59,491 nt of DNA from contig CAZJUE010000001.1 of NCBI GenBank assembly GCA_964549025.1, positions 1-59,491 on the forward strand, in the 5' to 3' direction. Within the stretch, counting starts at the first letter, position 1; every line of letters begins with the position of its first letter. This DNA comes from an uncultured Anaerolineaceae bacterium (lineage in GTDB: Bacteria > Chloroflexota > Anaerolineae > Anaerolineales > E44-bin32). Below are positions 52,570-58,912 of this stretch, in pieces. Both the position numbers and the translations under genes were made by a program. Under the pieces are notes generated by a model. That model saw nothing but the letters and a program-made list of their open reading frames with translations. It did no database searches and was not told the DNA's origin.

Positions 52570-53718
52570 ATGCAGAGTGAACAATTCCCTGAACCCGATC
52601 AGCACAGTCCCGCTCGCATGCGGCGGGCGCGCAGACGGTTAAGCCAGCTCCAAGCGGACGAGCGCGAAGCGTACCTGGACGGCCTGGCAGCCGCAGTCAC
52701 ACCGGGTTTCAGTTACTTCCTGTATGCAATATTGGCCGGCTTGCTGCTCGGCCTGGGATTCGCCTTCGATCAGCGGGCGCTGCTGGTGGCCGCTGCACTG
52801 TTTGCGCCGCGCCTCGGACCGCTGGCCGGCTTGTCGTTGGCGGCCGTCTCTGGATCGGTGCGGTTCTTTATGCGGATGGCATTGGCGCTGCTGGTCGGCC
52901 TGGCGCTGGTCGGCGCAGCTGCGGCGTTGGTGTTCTGGCTGGGAGTTGGTCAGGAATCCGAAGGGCTGCTGATCTATGAACATGACAGCTTGAATCTGAT
53001 CGACTTCGGCTTGCTGCTGGTTGGCGCTGTGCTGTTGACCGCCCGGTTGGCACGGTCTGAACGGGTGGCCGGATTGCCCGGCGCGGCGGCTGCCTACGAA
53101 CTGCTGCTGCCGCTGGGAGCGGCGGTGGCCGGCTACTTCCAATCTGACTTCGAGTTGTTGCAGGGTGCAGCGCTCACGTTGGGTTTGCACCTGAGTTGGG
53201 CGCTGGCGGTGGGCTTATTCACACTGGTGCTGATGGGCTTCCGACCGCTCACCGGCAGCGGCCGTTCGCTGGGGGCCGCGATCGGCATGATCGGCCTTTT
53301 GACCATCGCCAGCGCAGCTGGGCTGGGTACCTCGGTATTGGCCTCGCTGCCAACCCCGACTCCTACGCCGACTGCCACCCCGACCTCGACCAATACTCCG
53401 ACACCGTCTCTCACGCCCACGGCGACCGCTACCCCAACGCTGACCCCTACCGCCACGCCAACCGCTACCGATACAGCCACTCCCACCCCTACGCCGCCTT
53501 CAGCGCTGGTGCTTGGTACCGGGCTGCAGGGCGCCATCATCCGGGATGCACCGGCTGGAAGCCCGGTGGATCTGGTTTCTGAGAACGAACGCCTGCTGGT
53601 GCTCGACGGCCCGGAGATCGTCGAACTGCAGGAGTGGTGGCTGGTCCGCAAGGAAGATGGCACCGAAGGCTGGTTAGTCGGGCGCTATCTGGCGACGCTG
53701 ACACCTGCGGCGCCGTGA
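52570..53718 (+). CDS. DUF389-like membrane protein with Pro/Thr linker and C-terminal SH3b-like domain
   Basis: Multi-TM region with LFAPRLGPLAGLSLA, a PT-rich linker and a C-terminal GAIIRDAPAGSPV...WWLVRKEDGTEGWLVGRYL (bacterial SH3-like). Confidence 0.6.
   Translation: MQSEQFPEPDQHSPARMRRARRRLSQLQADEREAYLDGLAAAVTPGFSYFLYAILAGLLLGLGFAFDQRALLVAAALFAPRLGPLAGLSLAAVSGSVRFFMRMALALLVGLALVGAAAALVFWLGVGQESEGLLIYEHDSLNLIDFGLLLVGAVLLTARLARSERVAGLPGAAAAYELLLPLGAAVAGYFQSDFELLQGAALTLGLHLSWALAVGLFTLVLMGFRPLTGSGRSLGAAIGMIGLLTIASAAGLGTSVLASLPTPTPTPTATPTSTNTPTPSLTPTATATPTLTPTATPTATDTATPTPTPPSALVLGTGLQGAIIRDAPAGSPVDLVSENERLLVLDGPEIVELQEWWLVRKEDGTEGWLVGRYLATLTPAAP
53351..53499 (+). repeat. Low-complexity Pro/Thr-rich coding repeat (linker)
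   Basis: Translates to PTPTPTPTATPTSTNTPTPSLTPTATATPTLTPTATPTATDTATPTPTPP. Confidence 0.9.
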
Positions 53719-53835: not shown

Positions 53836-53864
53836 TTGACAGTCACTGGAAGAGACAGCATAAT
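53836..53864 (+). promoter_or_regulatory. Sigma-70-type promoter about 320 nt upstream of the SBP gene
   Basis: TTGACA (53836-53841), 17-nt spacer, CATAAT (53859-53864). Confidence 0.5.
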
Positions 53865-54192
53865 CAAACCACCAATCTCAGCGGGTATGCTTCGTCTGTT
53901 CGTCTGATCGGAGCTGGGCGGCTCCTGCCGGAGGTGCGCCTTCCTCTCCCGCAACTTGTGACCAGAGAAACAGCCAGTCGGTCAGACACGCCCACTGAGG
54001 TCAGGCGGCAACGCCTCGCTTGACGCTCTGGTTACACTGCGCAACACCTGCCACACCACCGTGAGGTAAGTTTCTGTTGCCTGCACGCCCACTGTGATAA
54101 CAATGGAAAGACGAAAGGAGGACTGCGACACATTTGACCCCTGTAAGCCTAAGATCTACCCATAAATCGGTAAATTTCTCCAGGAGGGGAGT

Positions 54193-56709
54193 ATGAAGAG
54201 CAAGTGGTTGAAGTGGTTCGCATTGTCAGTCATGCTGGCGCTTTTAGCGGCCGCGTGTGGTGGTACTGCCACGCCGGAAGAACCCGCCCCACCGCCGCCG
54301 GAAGGCCCGCCACCGCCGCCCGCAGAGGGGGCGATGATCGACTGCATGGGAGCCTCTTCGGGTGACCAGGTCACCGTAATGTATCAGTGGTCTGGCACAG
54401 AGGAAGAGCGGATCAATGCCATCCTGGCGCCGTTCGTAGAAGAGTGTGGCGTCGAAGTCGTTTCAGAGTCGACCCGCGACGCGGCGGTGCTGGACACCCG
54501 AGTGCAAAGTGATCCGCCGGACGTGTTGTTCTGGCCCTCGACCGCGCCAGCGCTGCTGTATACCGATCAGATGCAGGATCTGGGATCGGTCGGCGCCCAC
54601 GCAGAGAACTACGCTGACTTCTGGATCGAGCAAGGAACCTTTAGCGGTCGCTGGCTGGTTTTGCCGGCCAAGGCCGACATCAAGACCATCATCTGGTACA
54701 GCCCGATCCAATTCGAGACCTTTGGCTACGAAGTGCCAACAACCTTCGAAGAATTGGACGCCCTGGTTGAGCAGATGGTGGCGGACGGCAACACGCCGTG
54801 GAGCATGGGCTTCGAGAGCGGTGCAGCCACTGGTTGGACCGGCTCGGACTTCATCCAGGACCTGCTGCTGACCCAGCAGGGGCCGGAGTACGTGATGGGG
54901 CTGATCGACGGCTCGGTCTCGTACGATGACGCTGGCGTGGCAGAAGCCTATGAAACCTACGCAGCCTGGGCCTCCGATCCGGATTACACGGTAGGCGGCT
55001 CCACCGGGACGGTCAACACTGGTTTCCTGGATGCCATCTACCAGGTGTTCTCGGATCCGCCGGAGGCCATGATGGTGAAGCAGTCCGGCTTTGCCGGGGG
55101 CGAGGTCGTTTCTCAGTTCCCGGACCTCGAGTACGGGACCGACTTCGACTTCTTTGCCTTCCCTGGTGCCCAGGGCATGCAGGGCGGAGCTGACTACATG
55201 ATGGCGTTCGGCGACTCGCCGGCTGCGCATGCTCTGGTCGGGTATCTGACCAGCGAAGCGGGCGGCGAGGCCTGGGCGCAGGCCGGCTTCGATCTGTCGC
55301 CCAACAACGGCGCCACCGGAAACTACGCCGACGAGCAGTTGGCCAAGAAGGGCGATGCGCTGGCCGGAGCCAGCGGTTTCACTCCAGACCTGGGCGATAC
55401 GATCCCGGCACCATTCGGCCAAGCCGAGTGGAAGGCGATCGTGGATGTCGTCCAGGGCGGCGACGTCGATGCCGCGCTGACCGCCGCAGCGGTATCACAG
55501 CGCGCCGGGCTGGCGCTGGCGCCCTCGATCGACTGCATGGGCGTCTCGGCAGGGGACACTCTGTCGGTGATGTACCAGTGGTCGGGTGCCGAGGAAGAGA
55601 AGATCAACTCGATCTTTGCGCCGTTCGTGGAAGAATGTGGCGTCGAGATCGTGGCTGAGTCGACCCGCGACGCAGCGGTGTTGGACACCCGCGCCAACAG
55701 TGATCCTCCGGATCTGCTGTTCTGGCCATCCTCCGCACCGGCGTTGCTGTATACCGATCAAATGCAGGATCTGGGCTCGGTCGGCGCCCATGAAGAGAAC
55801 TACGCCGACTTCTGGATCGAGCAGGGAACGGTCGACGGTCGTTGGCTGGTGCTGCCGGCCAAGGCCGACATCAAGACCATCATCTGGTACAGCCCGATCC
55901 AGTTCGAGACCTTCGGTTACGGTGTTCCGACGACGTTTGATGAGCTCGACGCGCTGGTGGAGCAGATGGTGGCCGATGGCAACATCCCCTGGAGCATGGG
56001 CTTTGAGAGCGATGCGGCTACCGGATGGACCGGCTCGGACTTCATCCAGGACCTGATGCTGACCCAGCAAGGGCCGGAGTACGTGATGGGGTTGATCGAC
56101 GGCTCGGTTTCCTACGACGATGCCGGGGTGGTTCAGGCCTACGAGACCTACGCCGCCTGGGCTTCGGATCCGACCTACACGGTGGGTGGCGCAACCGGGA
56201 CGGTCGAAACCGGCTTCCTGGACGCCATCTACAAGGTGTTCTCGGATCCGCCCGAGGCCATGATGGTCAAGCAGTCCGGCTTCGCCGGAGGCGAGGTCGT
56301 TGCTCAGTTCCCGGACCTCGAGTACGGAACCGACTTCGACTTCTTCGCCTTCCCGGGCGCCCAGGGCATGCAGGGCGGCGCCGACTACCTGATGGTGTTC
56401 GGCGACTCGCCCGCAACCCAGGCGATGCTGGCCTATCTGACCAGCGCCGAGGGTGCCCGAACTTGGGCGCAAGCAGGCTTTGACCTCTCGCCCAATAAGT
56501 GGGCGGCCGGTCAGTACGCCGACGAGCAGCTGGCCAAGAAGGGCGATGCGCTTGCCGGAGCGACCGGTTTCACCCCGGACCTGGGCGACACGATCCCGGC
56601 TCCGTTCGGCACCGCCGAGTGGAGTGCGATCATCGATGTGGTTCAGGGAGCGGACCCGGCCGAAGCACTGGCGGCAGCAGCCGCAGCGCAACAGCAGGCG
56701 CTTCAGTAA
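54193..56709 (+). CDS. Lipoprotein with two tandem CUT1-type ABC substrate-binding domains
   Basis: Signal peptide plus lipobox LLAAAC and a Pro-rich tether, followed by two full-length family-1 SBP units (residues 49-445 and 446-838) that align over their whole length. Confidence 0.85.
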   Translation: MKSKWLKWFALSVMLALLAAACGGTATPEEPAPPPPEGPPPPPAEGAMIDCMGASSGDQVTVMYQWSGTEEERINAILAPFVEECGVEVVSESTRDAAVLDTRVQSDPPDVLFWPSTAPALLYTDQMQDLGSVGAHAENYADFWIEQGTFSGRWLVLPAKADIKTIIWYSPIQFETFGYEVPTTFEELDALVEQMVADGNTPWSMGFESGAATGWTGSDFIQDLLLTQQGPEYVMGLIDGSVSYDDAGVAEAYETYAAWASDPDYTVGGSTGTVNTGFLDAIYQVFSDPPEAMMVKQSGFAGGEVVSQFPDLEYGTDFDFFAFPGAQGMQGGADYMMAFGDSPAAHALVGYLTSEAGGEAWAQAGFDLSPNNGATGNYADEQLAKKGDALAGASGFTPDLGDTIPAPFGQAEWKAIVDVVQGGDVDAALTAAAVSQRAGLALAPSIDCMGVSAGDTLSVMYQWSGAEEEKINSIFAPFVEECGVEIVAESTRDAAVLDTRANSDPPDLLFWPSSAPALLYTDQMQDLGSVGAHEENYADFWIEQGTVDGRWLVLPAKADIKTIIWYSPIQFETFGYGVPTTFDELDALVEQMVADGNIPWSMGFESDAATGWTGSDFIQDLMLTQQGPEYVMGLIDGSVSYDDAGVVQAYETYAAWASDPTYTVGGATGTVETGFLDAIYKVFSDPPEAMMVKQSGFAGGEVVAQFPDLEYGTDFDFFAFPGAQGMQGGADYLMVFGDSPATQAMLAYLTSAEGARTWAQAGFDLSPNKWAAGQYADEQLAKKGDALAGATGFTPDLGDTIPAPFGTAEWSAIIDVVQGADPAEALAAAAAAQQQALQ
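54337..56706 (+). repeat. In-frame tandem duplication, unit 1191 bp (397 codons)
   Basis: ATCGACTGCATGGG occurs at 54337 and again at 55528. The copies are collinear and many of the differences fall at synonymous third positions. Confidence 0.9.
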
Positions 56710-56720
56710 GTTCGTAGTGC

Positions 56721-56752
56721 AAGTTGGGGCGATCTCCGGATCGCCCCAACTT
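56721..56752 (+). terminator. Intercistronic stem-loop after the SBP gene (attenuator or mRNA stabiliser)
   Basis: Perfect 14-bp stem AAGTTGGGGCGATC-tccg-GATCGCCCCAACTT between the SBP and the first permease gene. Confidence 0.6.
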
Positions 56753-56780
56753 GTTCATCATCGGGGGAAGGAGGAGTAGC

Positions 56781-57695
56781 GTGGCTGCCCCAAGGATCAT
56801 GCAGCAGGGACAGCGGATTCCCTGGCTGTACGCGCTCCCCGCGCTCATCATCATCTTTGTCTTTATCGTCTATCCCACGGTCAACACCGGCTACTTGAGC
56901 CTGCTTGATCGCCGGAGCGAGGGCCCGGCGACGAACGACTGCTCTGAGGGGGATCCGTGCTGGGGGATCCTTGAGAACTACCGTTATGCACTAACCAACC
57001 CGGAGATGACCACCGCGCTTCGCAACAACGCCCTGTGGTTGTTGGTGATGGTCCCGGGAACGGTAGCCATTGGTTTGGTGATCGCTGTCCTGGCGGATCG
57101 AGTCAGATACGAAGCGTTTGTCAAATCGATCATCTTCATGCCCATGGCGATCTCGTTTATCGGGGCCGGCGTGATATGGCGCTTCATGTATGCCATCGAA
57201 GCCGGATCCGGCGATCAGTGGGCATTGTTGAACGCCATCATCGTGGGGGTCGGGCTGGATCCGGTGCCGTTCATCAGCACCCGCGGCATCAACAACTTCG
57301 CCCTGATGGCGGTGGGGATCTGGCTGTGGGCCGGCTTCTCGATGACCATCCTCTCAGCGGCGCTGAAGAGCTTGCCCGGTGAGGTGTTGGAGGCCGCGCG
57401 GGTCGACGGGGCGACGGAGTGGCAGGTGTTTTGGCGCATCATGATCCCGATGATCATGCCCACCATCACGGTGGTCACCACAACCATGATCATCATCGTG
57501 CTCAAGATCTTCGATATCGTTTTTGTGATGACCAACGGCAACTTCGGGACTGAAGTAATCGCTAACCGAATGTTCAACTTGATCGTCACCGACACAGGCC
57601 GCTCGACTGCCATCGCTGTGCTGCTACTGGTGCTGACCATCCCGGTCATGATCTTCAATGTGCGGCGCTTCCGTGAGCAGGAGGCGATCCGATGA
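56781..57695 (+). CDS. Carbohydrate ABC transporter permease (MalF/CUT1 type)
   Basis: Six TM helices and EAA loop LEAARVDGATEWQVFWRIMIPMIMP. GTG 56781 is preceded by AAGGAGGAG. Confidence 0.85.
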   Translation: MAAPRIMQQGQRIPWLYALPALIIIFVFIVYPTVNTGYLSLLDRRSEGPATNDCSEGDPCWGILENYRYALTNPEMTTALRNNALWLLVMVPGTVAIGLVIAVLADRVRYEAFVKSIIFMPMAISFIGAGVIWRFMYAIEAGSGDQWALLNAIIVGVGLDPVPFISTRGINNFALMAVGIWLWAGFSMTILSAALKSLPGEVLEAARVDGATEWQVFWRIMIPMIMPTITVVTTTMIIIVLKIFDIVFVMTNGNFGTEVIANRMFNLIVTDTGRSTAIAVLLLVLTIPVMIFNVRRFREQEAIR

Positions 57696-58912
57696 GACCG
57701 TTTGAGCGTCTGAACGCCATCTTTCGTCGACTGCCCACTCACCTGGCGCTGGTAATCTTGATCGTAGCCTGGATAACGCCCACAGTCGGCGTCTTCGTTT
57801 CATCTTTCCGGTCGCGAGAAGCAGTGCGTACCTCTGGTTGGTGGAATGTCTTCCTGCCGCAAGAGGTCGAGGGCGAGGCGGAGTACACCACCTATTGCGC
57901 CGAGTGCCACGGCGCGGACGGTGCCGCGATCGCAGCCGCGGACCTGAGCGATCCCGCCATGGCTGCGGCGTACCCGCGCTCGAATCGGCTGCTGGTGGTG
58001 CTGCGGGCCGAAATCGATGGCCAGCCGCACTTGCAGGATCCGGCGCTGCCGGACGATCCAAATCAGGCGCTGGAATTGCTGGCGCCCATCCTGAGCTACA
58101 TGCAAACCCTTTCGGGCGGTCCGGCCGGGGGAGGAGTGAACGAGCTTAGCGTAGGTAACTATGCCGACGCGTTGGTCGGCTACAAAGGCACCAAGGATTA
58201 CCTCTCCGACTGCGAGGAAGGCGTCGAAAGTACGTTGGCCAAATACGATTGTGACGCGGGTGACGTGCTCAGTCCGGAGGGGATGGGGCGAGCGTTCTTC
58301 AATACCGTACTGGTAACCGTTCCGGCCGCCACCCTGCCGATCATTTTCGCTGCGCTAGCCGGCTACGCCTTCGCATGGATGGACTTCAAGGGGCGGTTCT
58401 GGGTGTTTTCGCTACTGGTTGGACTGCAAATCGTCCCACTTCAGATGGCGCTGGTACCGATCGCACAGCTGTACACTGATCTTGGATTGCAGAACACCTT
58501 CCTGGGCATCTGGCTGTTCCATGCCGGCTTTGGACTGCCTTACGCCATCTATTTGATGCGCAACTTCCTGGGCAGCCTGCCGACCGAGATCTTTGAGTCG
58601 GTTTATATCGATGGTGCCAGCCACTGGACCGCGTTCTGGAACCTGGCGGTGCCACTCTCGATTCCGGCCATCGCCTCCTTGGCGATCTACCAGTTCATCT
58701 GGATCTGGAATGATTTCCTGGTTGCCAAGATCTTCCTGACCGGCAGTCCAGTGTTGACGGTCCAAATCACCAACCTGATTGATCCGCGGGGCGCCAACTG
58801 GCATATCCTGACCGGCGCCGCCTTCCTATCCTTCCTGGTTCCGATGGCGGTGTTCCTGGGGCTGCAGCGCTTCTTCGTGCGCGGCCTGACCGCCGGAGCG
58901 GTAAAGGGATAA
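57692..58912 (+). CDS. Carbohydrate ABC transporter permease (MalG type) with cytochrome c-like insert in loop 1
   Basis: EAA loop FESVYIDGASHWTAFWNLAVPLSIP and a MalG-like VGNYADAL...FFNTVLVTV. An extra roughly 95 aa after TM1 contains YTTYCAECHGADG. ATGA overlap with the upstream permease. Confidence 0.85.
   Translation: MRPFERLNAIFRRLPTHLALVILIVAWITPTVGVFVSSFRSREAVRTSGWWNVFLPQEVEGEAEYTTYCAECHGADGAAIAAADLSDPAMAAAYPRSNRLLVVLRAEIDGQPHLQDPALPDDPNQALELLAPILSYMQTLSGGPAGGGVNELSVGNYADALVGYKGTKDYLSDCEEGVESTLAKYDCDAGDVLSPEGMGRAFFNTVLVTVPAATLPIIFAALAGYAFAWMDFKGRFWVFSLLVGLQIVPLQMALVPIAQLYTDLGLQNTFLGIWLFHAGFGLPYAIYLMRNFLGSLPTEIFESVYIDGASHWTAFWNLAVPLSIPAIASLAIYQFIWIWNDFLVAKIFLTGSPVLTVQITNLIDPRGANWHILTGAAFLSFLVPMAVFLGLQRFFVRGLTAGAVKG

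What the first reader, a model, noticed from the sequence alone, without database searches (positions are those of the whole stretch)
54337..56706. Complete sugar-binding protein duplicated in frame to give a two-SBP lipoprotein
Residues 49-445 and 446-838 of ORF 54193-56709 are two full-length CUT1-type substrate-binding units. They repeat with an exact 1191-bp period, since ATCGACTGCATGGG occurs at 54337 and 55528. There is only one signal peptide and lipobox (LLAAAC), and the second unit has none. The copies are not identical at DNA level. In the shared peptide KADIKTIIWYSPIQFETFGY the only differences are synonymous (caa/cag, ttt/ttc, ggc/ggt). Amino-acid changes cluster in a few spots such as TFSGRW versus TVDGRW and NNGATGNY versus NKWAAGQY. 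This argues for an old, selectively maintained fusion rather than an assembly artefact. Tandem SBDs are known for some amino-acid ABC importers. I am not aware of them as a described feature of CUT1 lipoprotein SBPs.
Basis: seen in the sequence. Interest (0 to 1): 0.62.

Follow-up and report, generated by a model that had tools for sequence, protein, structure and literature searches.

The report
Two-unit sugar-binding lipoprotein, concertedly evolving
One gene encodes a membrane-anchored sugar-capturing protein made of two complete copies of the same binding module; this doubled form is real and conserved in many Anaerolineae (Chloroflexota), where recombination between the two copies often keeps them nearly identical, a design not described for sugar ABC transporters in the papers I could search.

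Summary
ORF 54193-56709 (838 aa) has one lipoprotein signal and two full CUT1-type sugar-binding units with an exact, ungapped 1191-bp period. The units are 81% identical in DNA and 84% in protein. It is not an artefact. The longest identical run is 49 nt, contigs from independent runs in two studies span the junction, and about 88 doubled homologues exist. These include a cultured isolate (Levilinea saccharolytica) and long-read assemblies. Both units are under purifying selection (dN/dS 0.12 between halves, dS 0.8) and each keeps 101 of 102 family-conserved residues.

The new result concerns the family. The two units of one protein are 70-100% identical, while orthologues fall to 44-50%. Several species carry 750-880-nt identical tracts next to 23-26% divergence. 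This is concerted evolution by intragenic gene conversion. The window belongs to a clade where conversion has lapsed and the C unit keeps its own loop signature (KW, residues 769-774).

The best reading is a two-receptor lipoprotein feeding the adjacent permease pair, probably for alpha-glucosides or glucose. The closest known design is the tandem domains of GlnPQ, but membership fails. I rate it a new variant of a known kind. In passing, the second permease carries a conserved CXXCH cytochrome-c-like loop.

The parts
53836..53864 (+). Promoter-like site TTGACA-17-CATAAT (11 of 12 matches), about 330 nt upstream of the start codon
   Evidence: This is a consensus match only; one site was found and 1.1 were expected by chance.
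54182..54189 (+). Shine-Dalgarno-like AGGAGGGG, 3-4 nt before the ATG
   Evidence: Read directly from the sequence.
54193..56709 (+). Tandem-SBP gene, 838 aa plus stop
54193..54258 (+). Lipoprotein signal peptide ending in LLAAAC. Cys22 is the presumed lipidated residue.
   Evidence: One search gives the coordinates. Cys22 is invariant in 71 homologues, and most homologues have a canonical L-[AVG]-[AG]-C lipobox. Lipidation itself is inferred.
54259..54336 (+). Pro/Glu/Ala-rich tether (aa 23-48), disordered in the model
   Evidence: pLDDT is below 50 for residues 23-34 and 39-45. An imperfect 21-24-nt tandem repeat covers it.
54337..55527 (+). SBP unit N (aa 49-445), including the 7-residue junction GLALAPS (55507-55527)
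55528..56706 (+). SBP unit C (aa 446-838)
55306..55323 (+). Variable loop of unit N, NGATGN (aa 372-377), between invariant Asn371 and Tyr378
56497..56514 (+). Variable loop of unit C, KWAAGQ (aa 769-774). This is the C-unit-specific 'KW' signature shared by C units of 16 proteins in which only the C unit carries it.
56721..56752 (+). Perfect 14-bp core stem (AAGTTGGGGCGATC / GATCGCCCCAACTT) with a 4-nt loop, between the SBP gene and the first permease gene; the predicted fold adds a few flanking pairs
   Evidence: -39.1 kcal/mol, z = -3.7. A role in raising SBP relative to permease expression is inferred.
56724..57695 (+). Permease 1 (MalF/AglF-like, BPD_transp_1). The real start is probably GTG 56781, behind GGAGGAG.
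57692..58912 (+). Permease 2 (MalG/AglG/GlcU-like, BPD_transp_1) with a roughly 150-aa extracytoplasmic loop carrying CXXCH (CAECH, 57896-57910)

Best explanation
The gene encodes a lipid-anchored substrate-binding protein of a CUT1-type (MalEFG-like) ABC sugar importer. A whole binding module has been duplicated in frame, so one anchor and one Pro-rich tether carry two complete, functional sugar receptors joined by a short linker. Both receptors presumably capture the same or very similar sugars. An alpha-glucoside or glucose-type substrate is the best guess. They deliver the sugar to the permease pair encoded immediately downstream; the ATPase is encoded elsewhere. The doubled form is a conserved feature of a subfamily of Anaerolineae (Chloroflexota) SBPs. 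In most lineages RecA-type intragenic gene conversion keeps the two units nearly identical (concerted evolution). This argues that the benefit is two equivalent binding sites per tether, giving higher local receptor density or reach, rather than two specificities. The window belongs to a clade in which conversion has not acted for a long time (dS about 0.8). There the units have fixed unit-specific differences, concentrated in residues about 336-378 around a loop between two invariant residues, so some divergence in affinity or specificity is possible. Shown: the architecture, its conservation, purifying selection on both units, concerted evolution with conversion tracts, and linkage to the permeases. 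Inferred: lipidation, the ligand, that both units bind and dock, and the selective reason.
For: Architecture and fold. The AlphaFold model has pLDDT 90 and pTM 0.77, with the junction at pLDDT about 88. Its PDB neighbours are single-unit sugar SBPs 2b3b, 5xpj/5dvf and 3oo6-a.
Both units intact: each keeps 101 of 102 columns that are at least 95% conserved in 187 other units. dN/dS is 0.12 between halves and 0.08-0.23 for N-N and C-C comparisons between species.
Real and conserved: 88 homologues carry two units, 79 of them complete, at 44-85% identity. 33 intact doubled genes occur among the 80 GTDB species-representative loci retrieved, including Levilinea saccharolytica KIBI-1, the complete chromosome OZ252150.1 and nanopore MAGs. 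The junction is spanned by contigs of two studies.
Concerted evolution: identity between the units of one protein is 70-100%, against 44-50% for distant orthologues. 44 of 79 N/C pairs are sister leaves and no deep N/C split exists. DNA identity between halves spans 66-99.8%. Identical tracts of 849, 878 and 748 nt lie beside 23-26% divergence in L028, L030 and L034, P<1e-5.
Old duplication in this clade: N and C units of P0001-P0005 form separate clades. The KW loop marks the C units of 16 proteins and both units of 3 converted ones. Excess of orthologous over paralogous identity is confined to residues 337-381 and the tail.
Transport context: two BPD_transp_1 permeases follow directly. A LacI regulator is present in 69 of 81 related loci and a GH13 glycosidase in 50 of 81. 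JGI names the orthologues 'alpha-glucoside transport system substrate-binding protein'.
Against: No ligand, binding or transport data exist. The substrate guess rests on automatic names, on neighbours in other genomes and on distant structural relatives at 14-22% identity. The window itself has no GH13 gene, LacI gene or MalK-type ATPase near the operon. Pfam does not recognise the window protein beyond a borderline SBP_bac_11 hit. Whether a receptor held between a tether and a second receptor can dock on the permeases is untested. Operons with a single-unit SBP and the same permeases exist, so the second unit is not required for transport. No unit-specific signal is shared between the deepest clades, so one origin for the whole family is not shown. 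Many near-identical doubled genes come from short-read SPAdes contigs, where the copy number (2 or more) cannot be verified.
Confidence: 0.75

Rival explanations
1. Assembly artefact: a single SBP gene, or two strain variants, was wrongly joined into a tandem.
For: The window comes from a metagenome assembly. At least one 'single-unit' database entry (P0091) has the leader of the doubled Levilinea gene, which shows that assemblers do mishandle this repeat.
Against: The halves are only 81% identical and the longest shared run is 49 nt, so short reads separate them. Independent contigs from runs X1 and X3, from two studies, cross 55527/55528, and no contig fits two places. The in-frame junction is conserved in orthologues. 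Doubled genes occur in an isolate and in long-read assemblies.
Confidence: 0.01
2. The family pattern reflects many independent, recent whole-unit duplications, possibly after collapse to one unit, rather than an old duplication homogenised by gene conversion.
For: The repeat period varies from 1188 to 1218 nt. In several lineages with near-identical halves the junction repeats 15-36 nt of that lineage's own leader end (L006, L016, L017, L026, L060), as a fresh duplication with a breakpoint in the tether would produce. Single-unit forms are interspersed in the tree. One 90%-identity cluster holds both 449-480-aa and 811-889-aa members. No N/C signal is shared between the deepest clades. Tandem forms also occur in relatives only 32% identical.
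Against: Partial tracts (748-878 nt identical beside 23-26% divergence) cannot come from whole-unit duplication. The C-unit-specific KW loop is shared across a clade whose whole-unit trees group N with C by protein. Junction linkers are always short (about 5-16 aa) and start from nearly the complete C-terminal tail, although the 25-60-aa tethers offer many other breakpoints. The two processes are not exclusive. This rival concerns family history only; in the window the duplication is old either way (dS 0.8).
Confidence: 0.2
3. Only one unit is a working receptor. The other is a non-binding spacer or scaffold that lifts the active unit away from the membrane or through the wall.
For: Single-unit SBPs serve orthologous permeases. 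The membrane-proximal unit is tethered at both ends, which could hinder docking. This second point is inference.
Against: Both units keep 101 of 102 highly conserved residues and evolve under equally strong purifying selection. Gene conversion copies sequence between the units, which is hard to reconcile with different roles.
Confidence: 0.08
4. In the window's clade the two units have become functionally different (different sugars or affinities), as with SBD1 and SBD2 of GlnPQ, and selection against conversion preserves the difference.
For: Six N/C differences are fixed in P0001-P0005: three substitutions (M336L, A345T, N377Q, all within 336-377) and three junction positions (442-444) that have no counterpart in the shorter C tail. 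Further conserved unit-specific residues include a Trp (W770) in a loop flanked by invariant Asn and Tyr. The KW signature persists in C units over a wider clade. The excess of orthologous identity is localised to residues 337-381. Aromatic residues commonly stack on sugars in CUT1 SBPs (general knowledge).
Against: The position of the loop relative to the pocket is not established, because no coordinates were available to me. In P0009, P0013 and P0016 the KW loop was copied into the N unit. All strongly conserved residues are the same in both units.
Confidence: 0.35

Closest known systems
GlnPQ (Lactococcus lactis and streptococci), an ABC amino-acid importer with tandem substrate-binding domains SBD1-SBD2
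   Same: Two complete substrate-binding modules lie in series in one polypeptide on the outer face of the membrane of a type I ABC importer. This multiplies the binding sites near the translocator (PMC8025302).
   Different: In GlnPQ the SBDs are fused to the transmembrane domain. They are small cluster-F amino-acid binders of about 230 aa with different specificities, joined by a flexible linker. Here the tandem is a separate lipoprotein gene and the units are about 395-aa CUT1 sugar binders. In most relatives the units are kept nearly identical, and the junction is modelled with high confidence.
AglEFGAK (Sinorhizobium) and GgtBCD (Synechocystis) alpha-glucoside / glucosylglycerol CUT1 transporters (KEGG K10232-K10234)
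   Same: The operon plan is SBP then two permeases. Many relatives also have a LacI-type regulator and a GH13 alpha-glucosidase-like gene. JGI gives the orthologues this name automatically.
   Different: To my knowledge those SBPs are single units. The window has no GH13, LacI or ATPase gene next to the operon. The ligand is untested.
Single-unit glucose/galactose-type CUT1 SBPs with solved structures: Thermus thermophilus GBP (2b3b), Pseudomonas putida ppGBP (5dvf/5xpj), Actinoplanes AcbH (3oo6-3ooa)
   Same: These are the best sequence and fold matches for each unit.
   Different: Identity is only 14-22%. Every match covers one unit (TM-score normalised to the query at most 0.39). No solved structure spans two units.
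Long-lasting concerted evolution of prokaryotic paralogues (PMC6053082, which reports 26 such genes)
   Same: Copies within a genome are more alike than orthologues between species, and mosaic conversion tracts are present.
   Different: Here the converting copies are two halves of one open reading frame (adjacent 1.2-kb direct repeats), not separate genes.

Membership tests
CUT1 (TC 3.A.1.1) carbohydrate ABC importer substrate-binding protein | Two-lobed class II / cluster D SBP fold of about 400 residues | tested here: met
   AlphaFold model with pLDDT 90. The top 30 Foldseek PDB hits are sugar SBPs of 383-406 residues, E down to 5e-18, TM normalised to the target 0.62-0.79. This holds for each of the two units.
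CUT1 (TC 3.A.1.1) carbohydrate ABC importer substrate-binding protein | Sequence match to the family models (Pfam SBP_bac_1 / SBP_bac_8) above threshold | tested here: inconclusive
   The window protein gives only SBP_bac_11 at 25.4 bits against a cut-off of 25. PF01547 and PF13416 are on record for several orthologues. phmmer and profile matches to PDB CUT1 SBPs reach E 2e-8 to 1e-17.
CUT1 (TC 3.A.1.1) carbohydrate ABC importer substrate-binding protein | Encoded next to a MalF-type and a MalG-type permease | tested here: met
   BPD_transp_1 in ORFs 56724-57695 and 57692-58912. NCBIfam hits are GlcU (E 3e-37) and MalG (E 2e-25). The same order is found in all but one of the related loci where enough downstream DNA is held.
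CUT1 (TC 3.A.1.1) carbohydrate ABC importer substrate-binding protein | MalK/MsiK-type ATPase partner | tested here: not met
   No such gene lies near the operon in the window. In CUT1 systems of Gram-positive bacteria the ATPase is often shared and encoded elsewhere (general knowledge), so this does not exclude membership.
CUT1 (TC 3.A.1.1) carbohydrate ABC importer substrate-binding protein | Binds a sugar and delivers it to the transporter | not testable with these tools
   Needs ITC or thermal shift and uptake assays.
Tandem-SBD ABC importers of the GlnPQ type | Two or more binding domains in series in one polypeptide | tested here: met
Tandem-SBD ABC importers of the GlnPQ type | Binding domains covalently fused to the transmembrane domain | tested here: not met
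   The SBP gene ends with TAA at 56707-56709. A hairpin and a separate ribosome-binding site and start codon precede permease 1.
Tandem-SBD ABC importers of the GlnPQ type | Polar amino-acid (cluster F) binding domains | tested here: not met
   All sequence and fold matches are carbohydrate SBPs.
Alpha-glucoside transporter AglE/GgtB (K10232) | Orthology or annotation as AglE/GgtB, with an alpha-glucosidase in the cluster | tested here: inconclusive
   JGI gives this name automatically to many orthologues. A GH13 gene is present in 50 of 81 related loci but not in the window. No direct comparison with characterised AglE or GgtB was made.
Bacterial lipoprotein | Signal peptide with a lipobox and an invariant Cys at +1 | tested here: met
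   The signal is MKSKWLKWFALSVMLALLAAAC. Cys22 is invariant in 71 homologues, and most have L-[AVGS]-[AG]-C. The window's -3 residue is Ala, which is tolerated but not canonical. Lipidation was not tested.
Concerted evolution by gene conversion (a process, not a family) | Copies within a genome are more alike than orthologues, and mosaic identical tracts are present | tested here: met
   Met for the family. In the window itself there is no recent tract: the longest identical run is 49 nt, permutation P = 0.03.

The most novel reading that the evidence does not exclude
Tandem CUT1 SBPs are a selected, lineage-wide design of Anaerolineae: a semi-rigid two-receptor lipoprotein. Frequent intragenic gene conversion holds the two 1.2-kb units together, and selection retains both despite the instability of long direct repeats. 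The window represents lineages that escaped conversion and are specialising the distal unit through a Trp-bearing loop. If so, the family is a natural series running from 'two identical receptors' to 'two different receptors' on one tether. In addition, the cognate permease carries a haem-c-type domain in its outer loop, which would link sugar import to a redox cofactor.
Probability: 0.3. Interest if true: 0.7.

Novelty: new variant of a known kind. Interest (0 to 1): 0.52.

Why it matters
Work on how several binding domains share one ABC translocator (competition for docking, linker length, effective concentration) rests almost entirely on GlnPQ and OpuA, where small amino-acid or betaine domains are fused to the membrane protein. 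A free, lipid-anchored tandem of large sugar receptors is a different geometry for the same question. It comes with natural controls: single-unit orthologues using the same permeases, and pairs ranging from identical to 66% identical in DNA. A cultured carrier (Levilinea saccharolytica KIBI-1) exists. For molecular evolution it is a clear bacterial case of concerted evolution inside one reading frame, with visible conversion tracts and a sub-region that resists homogenisation. For annotation, short-read assemblies can collapse such genes, so SBP counts in Chloroflexota MAGs may be too low.

Tried and rejected
1. Pfam and NCBIfam on the window protein gave only marginal hits. The family assignment had to come from PDB sequence and fold searches.
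2. The look-up of encoding contigs for the window protein found nothing on record.
3. I looked for columns with a family-wide N-versus-C consensus and found none. Orthologous-minus-paralogous identity between the deepest clades is 0.00 everywhere. A single origin for the whole family could therefore be neither shown nor excluded.
4. I considered the junction motif (..AL-G/S-G-x-P..) as evidence of one origin. I rejected it as weak, because the tethers are Pro/Ala-rich anyway.
5. No three-unit version appeared among the best hits.
6. I could not map the variable loop onto the binding pocket. No model coordinates are returned, and the alignment to AcbH at about 17% identity is too uncertain.
7. 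The structure prediction of permease 2 with 20 mostly partial homologues gave pLDDT 54 and was unusable, so no fold search was run.
8. A homologue search with the permease loop returned only 32 proteins, mostly fragments, all annotated (where named) as carbohydrate or alpha-glucoside permeases, nearly all from Chloroflexota with one labelled Spirochaetota.
9. Eight literature searches found no paper on tandem sugar SBPs or on CXXCH-bearing ABC permeases (and the review checked). van der Heide & Poolman 2002 is not held.
10. Rfam found only a tRNA in the window and nothing in the roughly 330-nt leader.
11. No GH13, LacI or MalK-type gene lies near the operon in the window.
Full report
OBSERVATION. 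The window has an 838-codon ORF at 54193-56709 on the + strand. The 14-mer ATCGACTGCATGGG occurs only at 54337 and 55528, with none expected by chance, and a direct repeat with a 1191-nt period is found. Units 54337-55527 (aa 49-445) and 55528-56706 (aa 446-838) align without a gap. They are 81.0% identical in DNA and 83.9% in protein, and identity by codon position is 88/92/63%. The shared peptide KADIKTIIWYSPIQFETFGY differs only by caa/cag, ttt/ttc and ggc/ggt, and there are 61 amino-acid differences in 393 positions. One signal peptide ends in LLAAAC. Cys22 is invariant in 71 homologues. The second unit follows the junction GLALAPS without a stop codon or a signal peptide.

WHAT EACH UNIT IS. 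Pfam sees only a borderline SBP_bac_11 hit, and NCBIfam gives weak GlcS and NgcE matches. Against PDB sequences, one unit matches AcbH (E 2e-8), the Thermus glucose-binding protein 2b3b and other CUT1 sugar SBPs. A profile of 71 homologues raises this to E 1e-17. An AlphaFold model of the whole protein is confident: pLDDT 90, pTM 0.77, and about 88 for the junction residues. Its PDB neighbours are all single sugar SBPs of about 390-400 residues (2b3b, 5xpj/5dvf, 3oo6-a, 7eho). Each covers only one unit, with TM normalised to the query at most 0.39. No solved structure spans two units. Two BPD_transp_1 permeases follow directly, and the second resembles GlcU/MalG. The gene is therefore a CUT1-type SBP gene with two complete units.

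NOT AN ARTEFACT. The longest identical stretch between the halves is 49 nt, so ordinary reads tell them apart. Logan contigs from public metagenome runs of two studies cover both units. Contigs in runs X1 and X3 cross the junction at 55527/55528, and none fits two places. A search of 5.8 billion protein clusters gave 88 homologues with two units, 79 of them complete, at 44-85% identity, mostly from Anaerolineae/Chloroflexota MAGs. Among the 80 GTDB species-representative loci retrieved, 33 carry an intact doubled gene. These include the cultured Levilinea saccharolytica KIBI-1 (L008), a complete chromosome (OZ252150.1, L023) and nanopore MAGs (L027).

SELECTION IN THE WINDOW. Between the halves, Nei-Gojobori dS is 0.80, dN is 0.094 and dN/dS is 0.12. 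dS is uneven along the unit, from 0.3 to above 1.3. Between species, N-N and C-C comparisons each give dN/dS of 0.08-0.23. Each unit keeps 101 of the 102 columns that are at least 95% conserved in 187 other units. A Cys pair (C51/C85 and C448/C482) is invariant in each unit. Neither unit is decaying.

THE FAMILY PICTURE: CONCERTED EVOLUTION. In 79 complete doubled proteins the two units of one protein are 70-100% identical, while identity to the query's units falls to 44-50%. In a neighbour-joining tree of 189 units, 44 of 79 N/C pairs are sister leaves. The rest coalesce within small clades, and there is no deep N-versus-C split. At the DNA level, identity between halves in 34 genes runs from 66% to 99.8%, and 18 are at or above 97%.

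The pattern is not simply one of recent whole-unit duplications. L028 has an 849-nt identical run beside 25% divergence. L030 has 878 nt beside 26%, L034 has 748 nt beside 23%, and L018 has a 502-nt identical core. All give P<1e-5 when the variable sites are placed at random. These are partial gene-conversion tracts.

The duplication also predates speciation within clades. N units and C units of P0001-P0005, the window's clade, form separate groups. A C-unit-specific loop, SPN-KW-A-x-G-Q/K-Y, is shared by the C units of 16 proteins (P0001-8, 10-12, 14, 20, 21, 23, 24). It occurs in both units of P0009, P0013 and P0016, whose halves are 93-98% identical, which means the loop was copied from C to N there. 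The excess of orthologous over paralogous identity is confined to residues 337-381 and the tail.

Long perfect direct repeats are prone to recombinational deletion (general knowledge). Their persistence in many species therefore argues for selection in favour of the two-unit state.

Some caveats apply. Repeat periods vary from 1188 to 1218 nt. In some lineages with near-identical halves the junction repeats 15-36 nt of that lineage's own tether end, so fresh re-duplication after collapse is also plausible. No N/C signal links the deepest clades. Many near-identical cases come from short-read SPAdes contigs, where a copy number above two cannot be excluded. At least one 'single-unit' entry (P0091) looks like a collapsed or recombined version of the doubled Levilinea gene.

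WIDER RELATIVES. HMMER against 1.84 billion representatives found 181 proteins at E<=1e-30. Tandem forms also occur in relatives only about 32% identical: P0133 (81% identity between its units), P0135 and P0153 (both 100%). Where named, these come from Promineifilaceae and Thermoflexales, both Anaerolineae. The unit is also found behind a phosphonate-type SBP domain, a Ser/Thr kinase, a caspase domain and a STAND NTPase.

FUNCTION. In related loci a LacI regulator (69 of 81) and a GH13 glycosidase (50 of 81) accompany the operon. JGI names the orthologues alpha-glucoside transport SBP and permease. The nearest structures bind glucose or galactose. The window itself has none of these neighbours and no MalK-type ATPase nearby.

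My best explanation is a lipid-anchored two-receptor SBP that feeds the adjacent permeases with an alpha-glucoside or glucose-type sugar. Homogenisation in most lineages points to two equivalent sites, giving more receptors or more reach per tether. In the window's clade, fixed differences around residues 336-378 allow some specialisation. These include Trp770 in a loop between invariant Asn and Tyr. Binding, docking, lipidation and the ligand are all inferred.

COMPARISON WITH WHAT IS KNOWN. Tandem binding domains are well studied in GlnPQ (PMC8025302). There they are small amino-acid domains fused to the membrane subunit, with different specificities. Here two defining features of that class, fusion to the TMD and the amino-acid cluster, were tested and not met. 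The system may work like GlnPQ in multiplying receptors, but it is not a member. Eight full-text searches found no description of tandem sugar SBPs, and a 2021 review of SBP-dependent transporters does not mention them. Concerted evolution of separate prokaryotic paralogues is known (PMC6053082). Here it acts within one reading frame. I file the finding as a new variant of a known kind.

VERDICT. The added value is the family-level concerted evolution and the fact that the architecture is widespread in Anaerolineae. Interest is moderate (0.52). The architecture is already present, unremarked, in public databases, and the mechanism is unproven. It is nevertheless a clean and testable system.

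Noticed in passing
window 57692-58912 (CXXCH at 57896-57910; loop about 57854-58291): The MalG/AglG-like permease 2 has a roughly 150-aa loop after TM1 with a CAECH haem-c-type motif. All 74 orthologous permease-2 genes found in the related loci (beside both single- and double-SBP genes) carry CXXCH at the same place, together with conserved Y65, G74, G77, P88, R96, H113, a Cys pair (C174/C187) and G197-M198. The loop weakly matches cytochrome c domains: Pfam PF13442 E 5e-4, CcoP 8snh_G E 0.002, TsdA E 0.03. No paper was found. The AlphaFold model was too poor to use (pLDDT 54). A cytochrome-c-like domain in an ABC sugar permease is unexplained and may be more unusual than the tandem SBP..
   Followed up: partly
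window 56721-56752: A perfect 14-bp core stem with a 4-nt loop (-39 kcal/mol, z = -3.7) lies between the SBP stop codon and permease 1, without a T tract. It overlaps the TTG that the ORF list gives as the permease start, so the real start is probably GTG 56781, behind GGAGGAG. It may stabilise the SBP part of the transcript or attenuate read-through..
   Followed up: partly
proteins P0100, P0101, P0108, P0112 (relatives, not in the window): The same CUT1 unit (about 70% identical) is fused behind a different binding domain, Phosphonate-bd PF12974 (E 6e-54). This is a hetero-tandem of two SBP types in one protein. More distant relatives carry the unit behind a Ser/Thr kinase, a caspase domain, a STAND NTPase or cytochrome P460..
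   Followed up: partly
P0091 versus L008 (Levilinea saccharolytica, NZ_LGCM01000045.1): A 460-aa 'single-unit' database protein has the same leader as the doubled Levilinea gene. It reads as N-unit start plus C-unit remainder, so it is either an assembly collapse or a real recombinational deletion in a sister strain. One 90%-identity cluster (that of P0153) also mixes 449-480-aa and 811-889-aa members. Counts of single versus doubled forms in metagenomes are therefore unreliable..
   Followed up: partly
L025 and L065: In these two doubled genes the reading frame is broken inside or before the second unit. L065 is a nanopore MAG, so a sequencing error is likely. L025 is a SPAdes contig, so either an error or a pseudogene is possible..
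   Followed up: no
proteins P0095, P0098, P0103 and others (501-aa group): A group of single-unit relatives has a conserved N-terminal extension of about 100 aa in place of the lipobox and tether (...VVVQKDDWLSKYADKYLGN..WPAIF...NPDLIEVGWTICIP). It has no Pfam match. It looks like a small wall-binding-type domain, which would be a different way of anchoring the receptor..
   Followed up: no
window 53836-54192: A near-consensus promoter-like site (TTGACA-17-CATAAT) lies about 330 nt upstream of the SBP start, which would leave a long leader. Rfam finds nothing there. Most relatives have a LacI regulator upstream, but the window has a DUF389 membrane protein with a Thr/Pro-rich linker and an SH3-like end (52570-53718) instead..
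   Followed up: no
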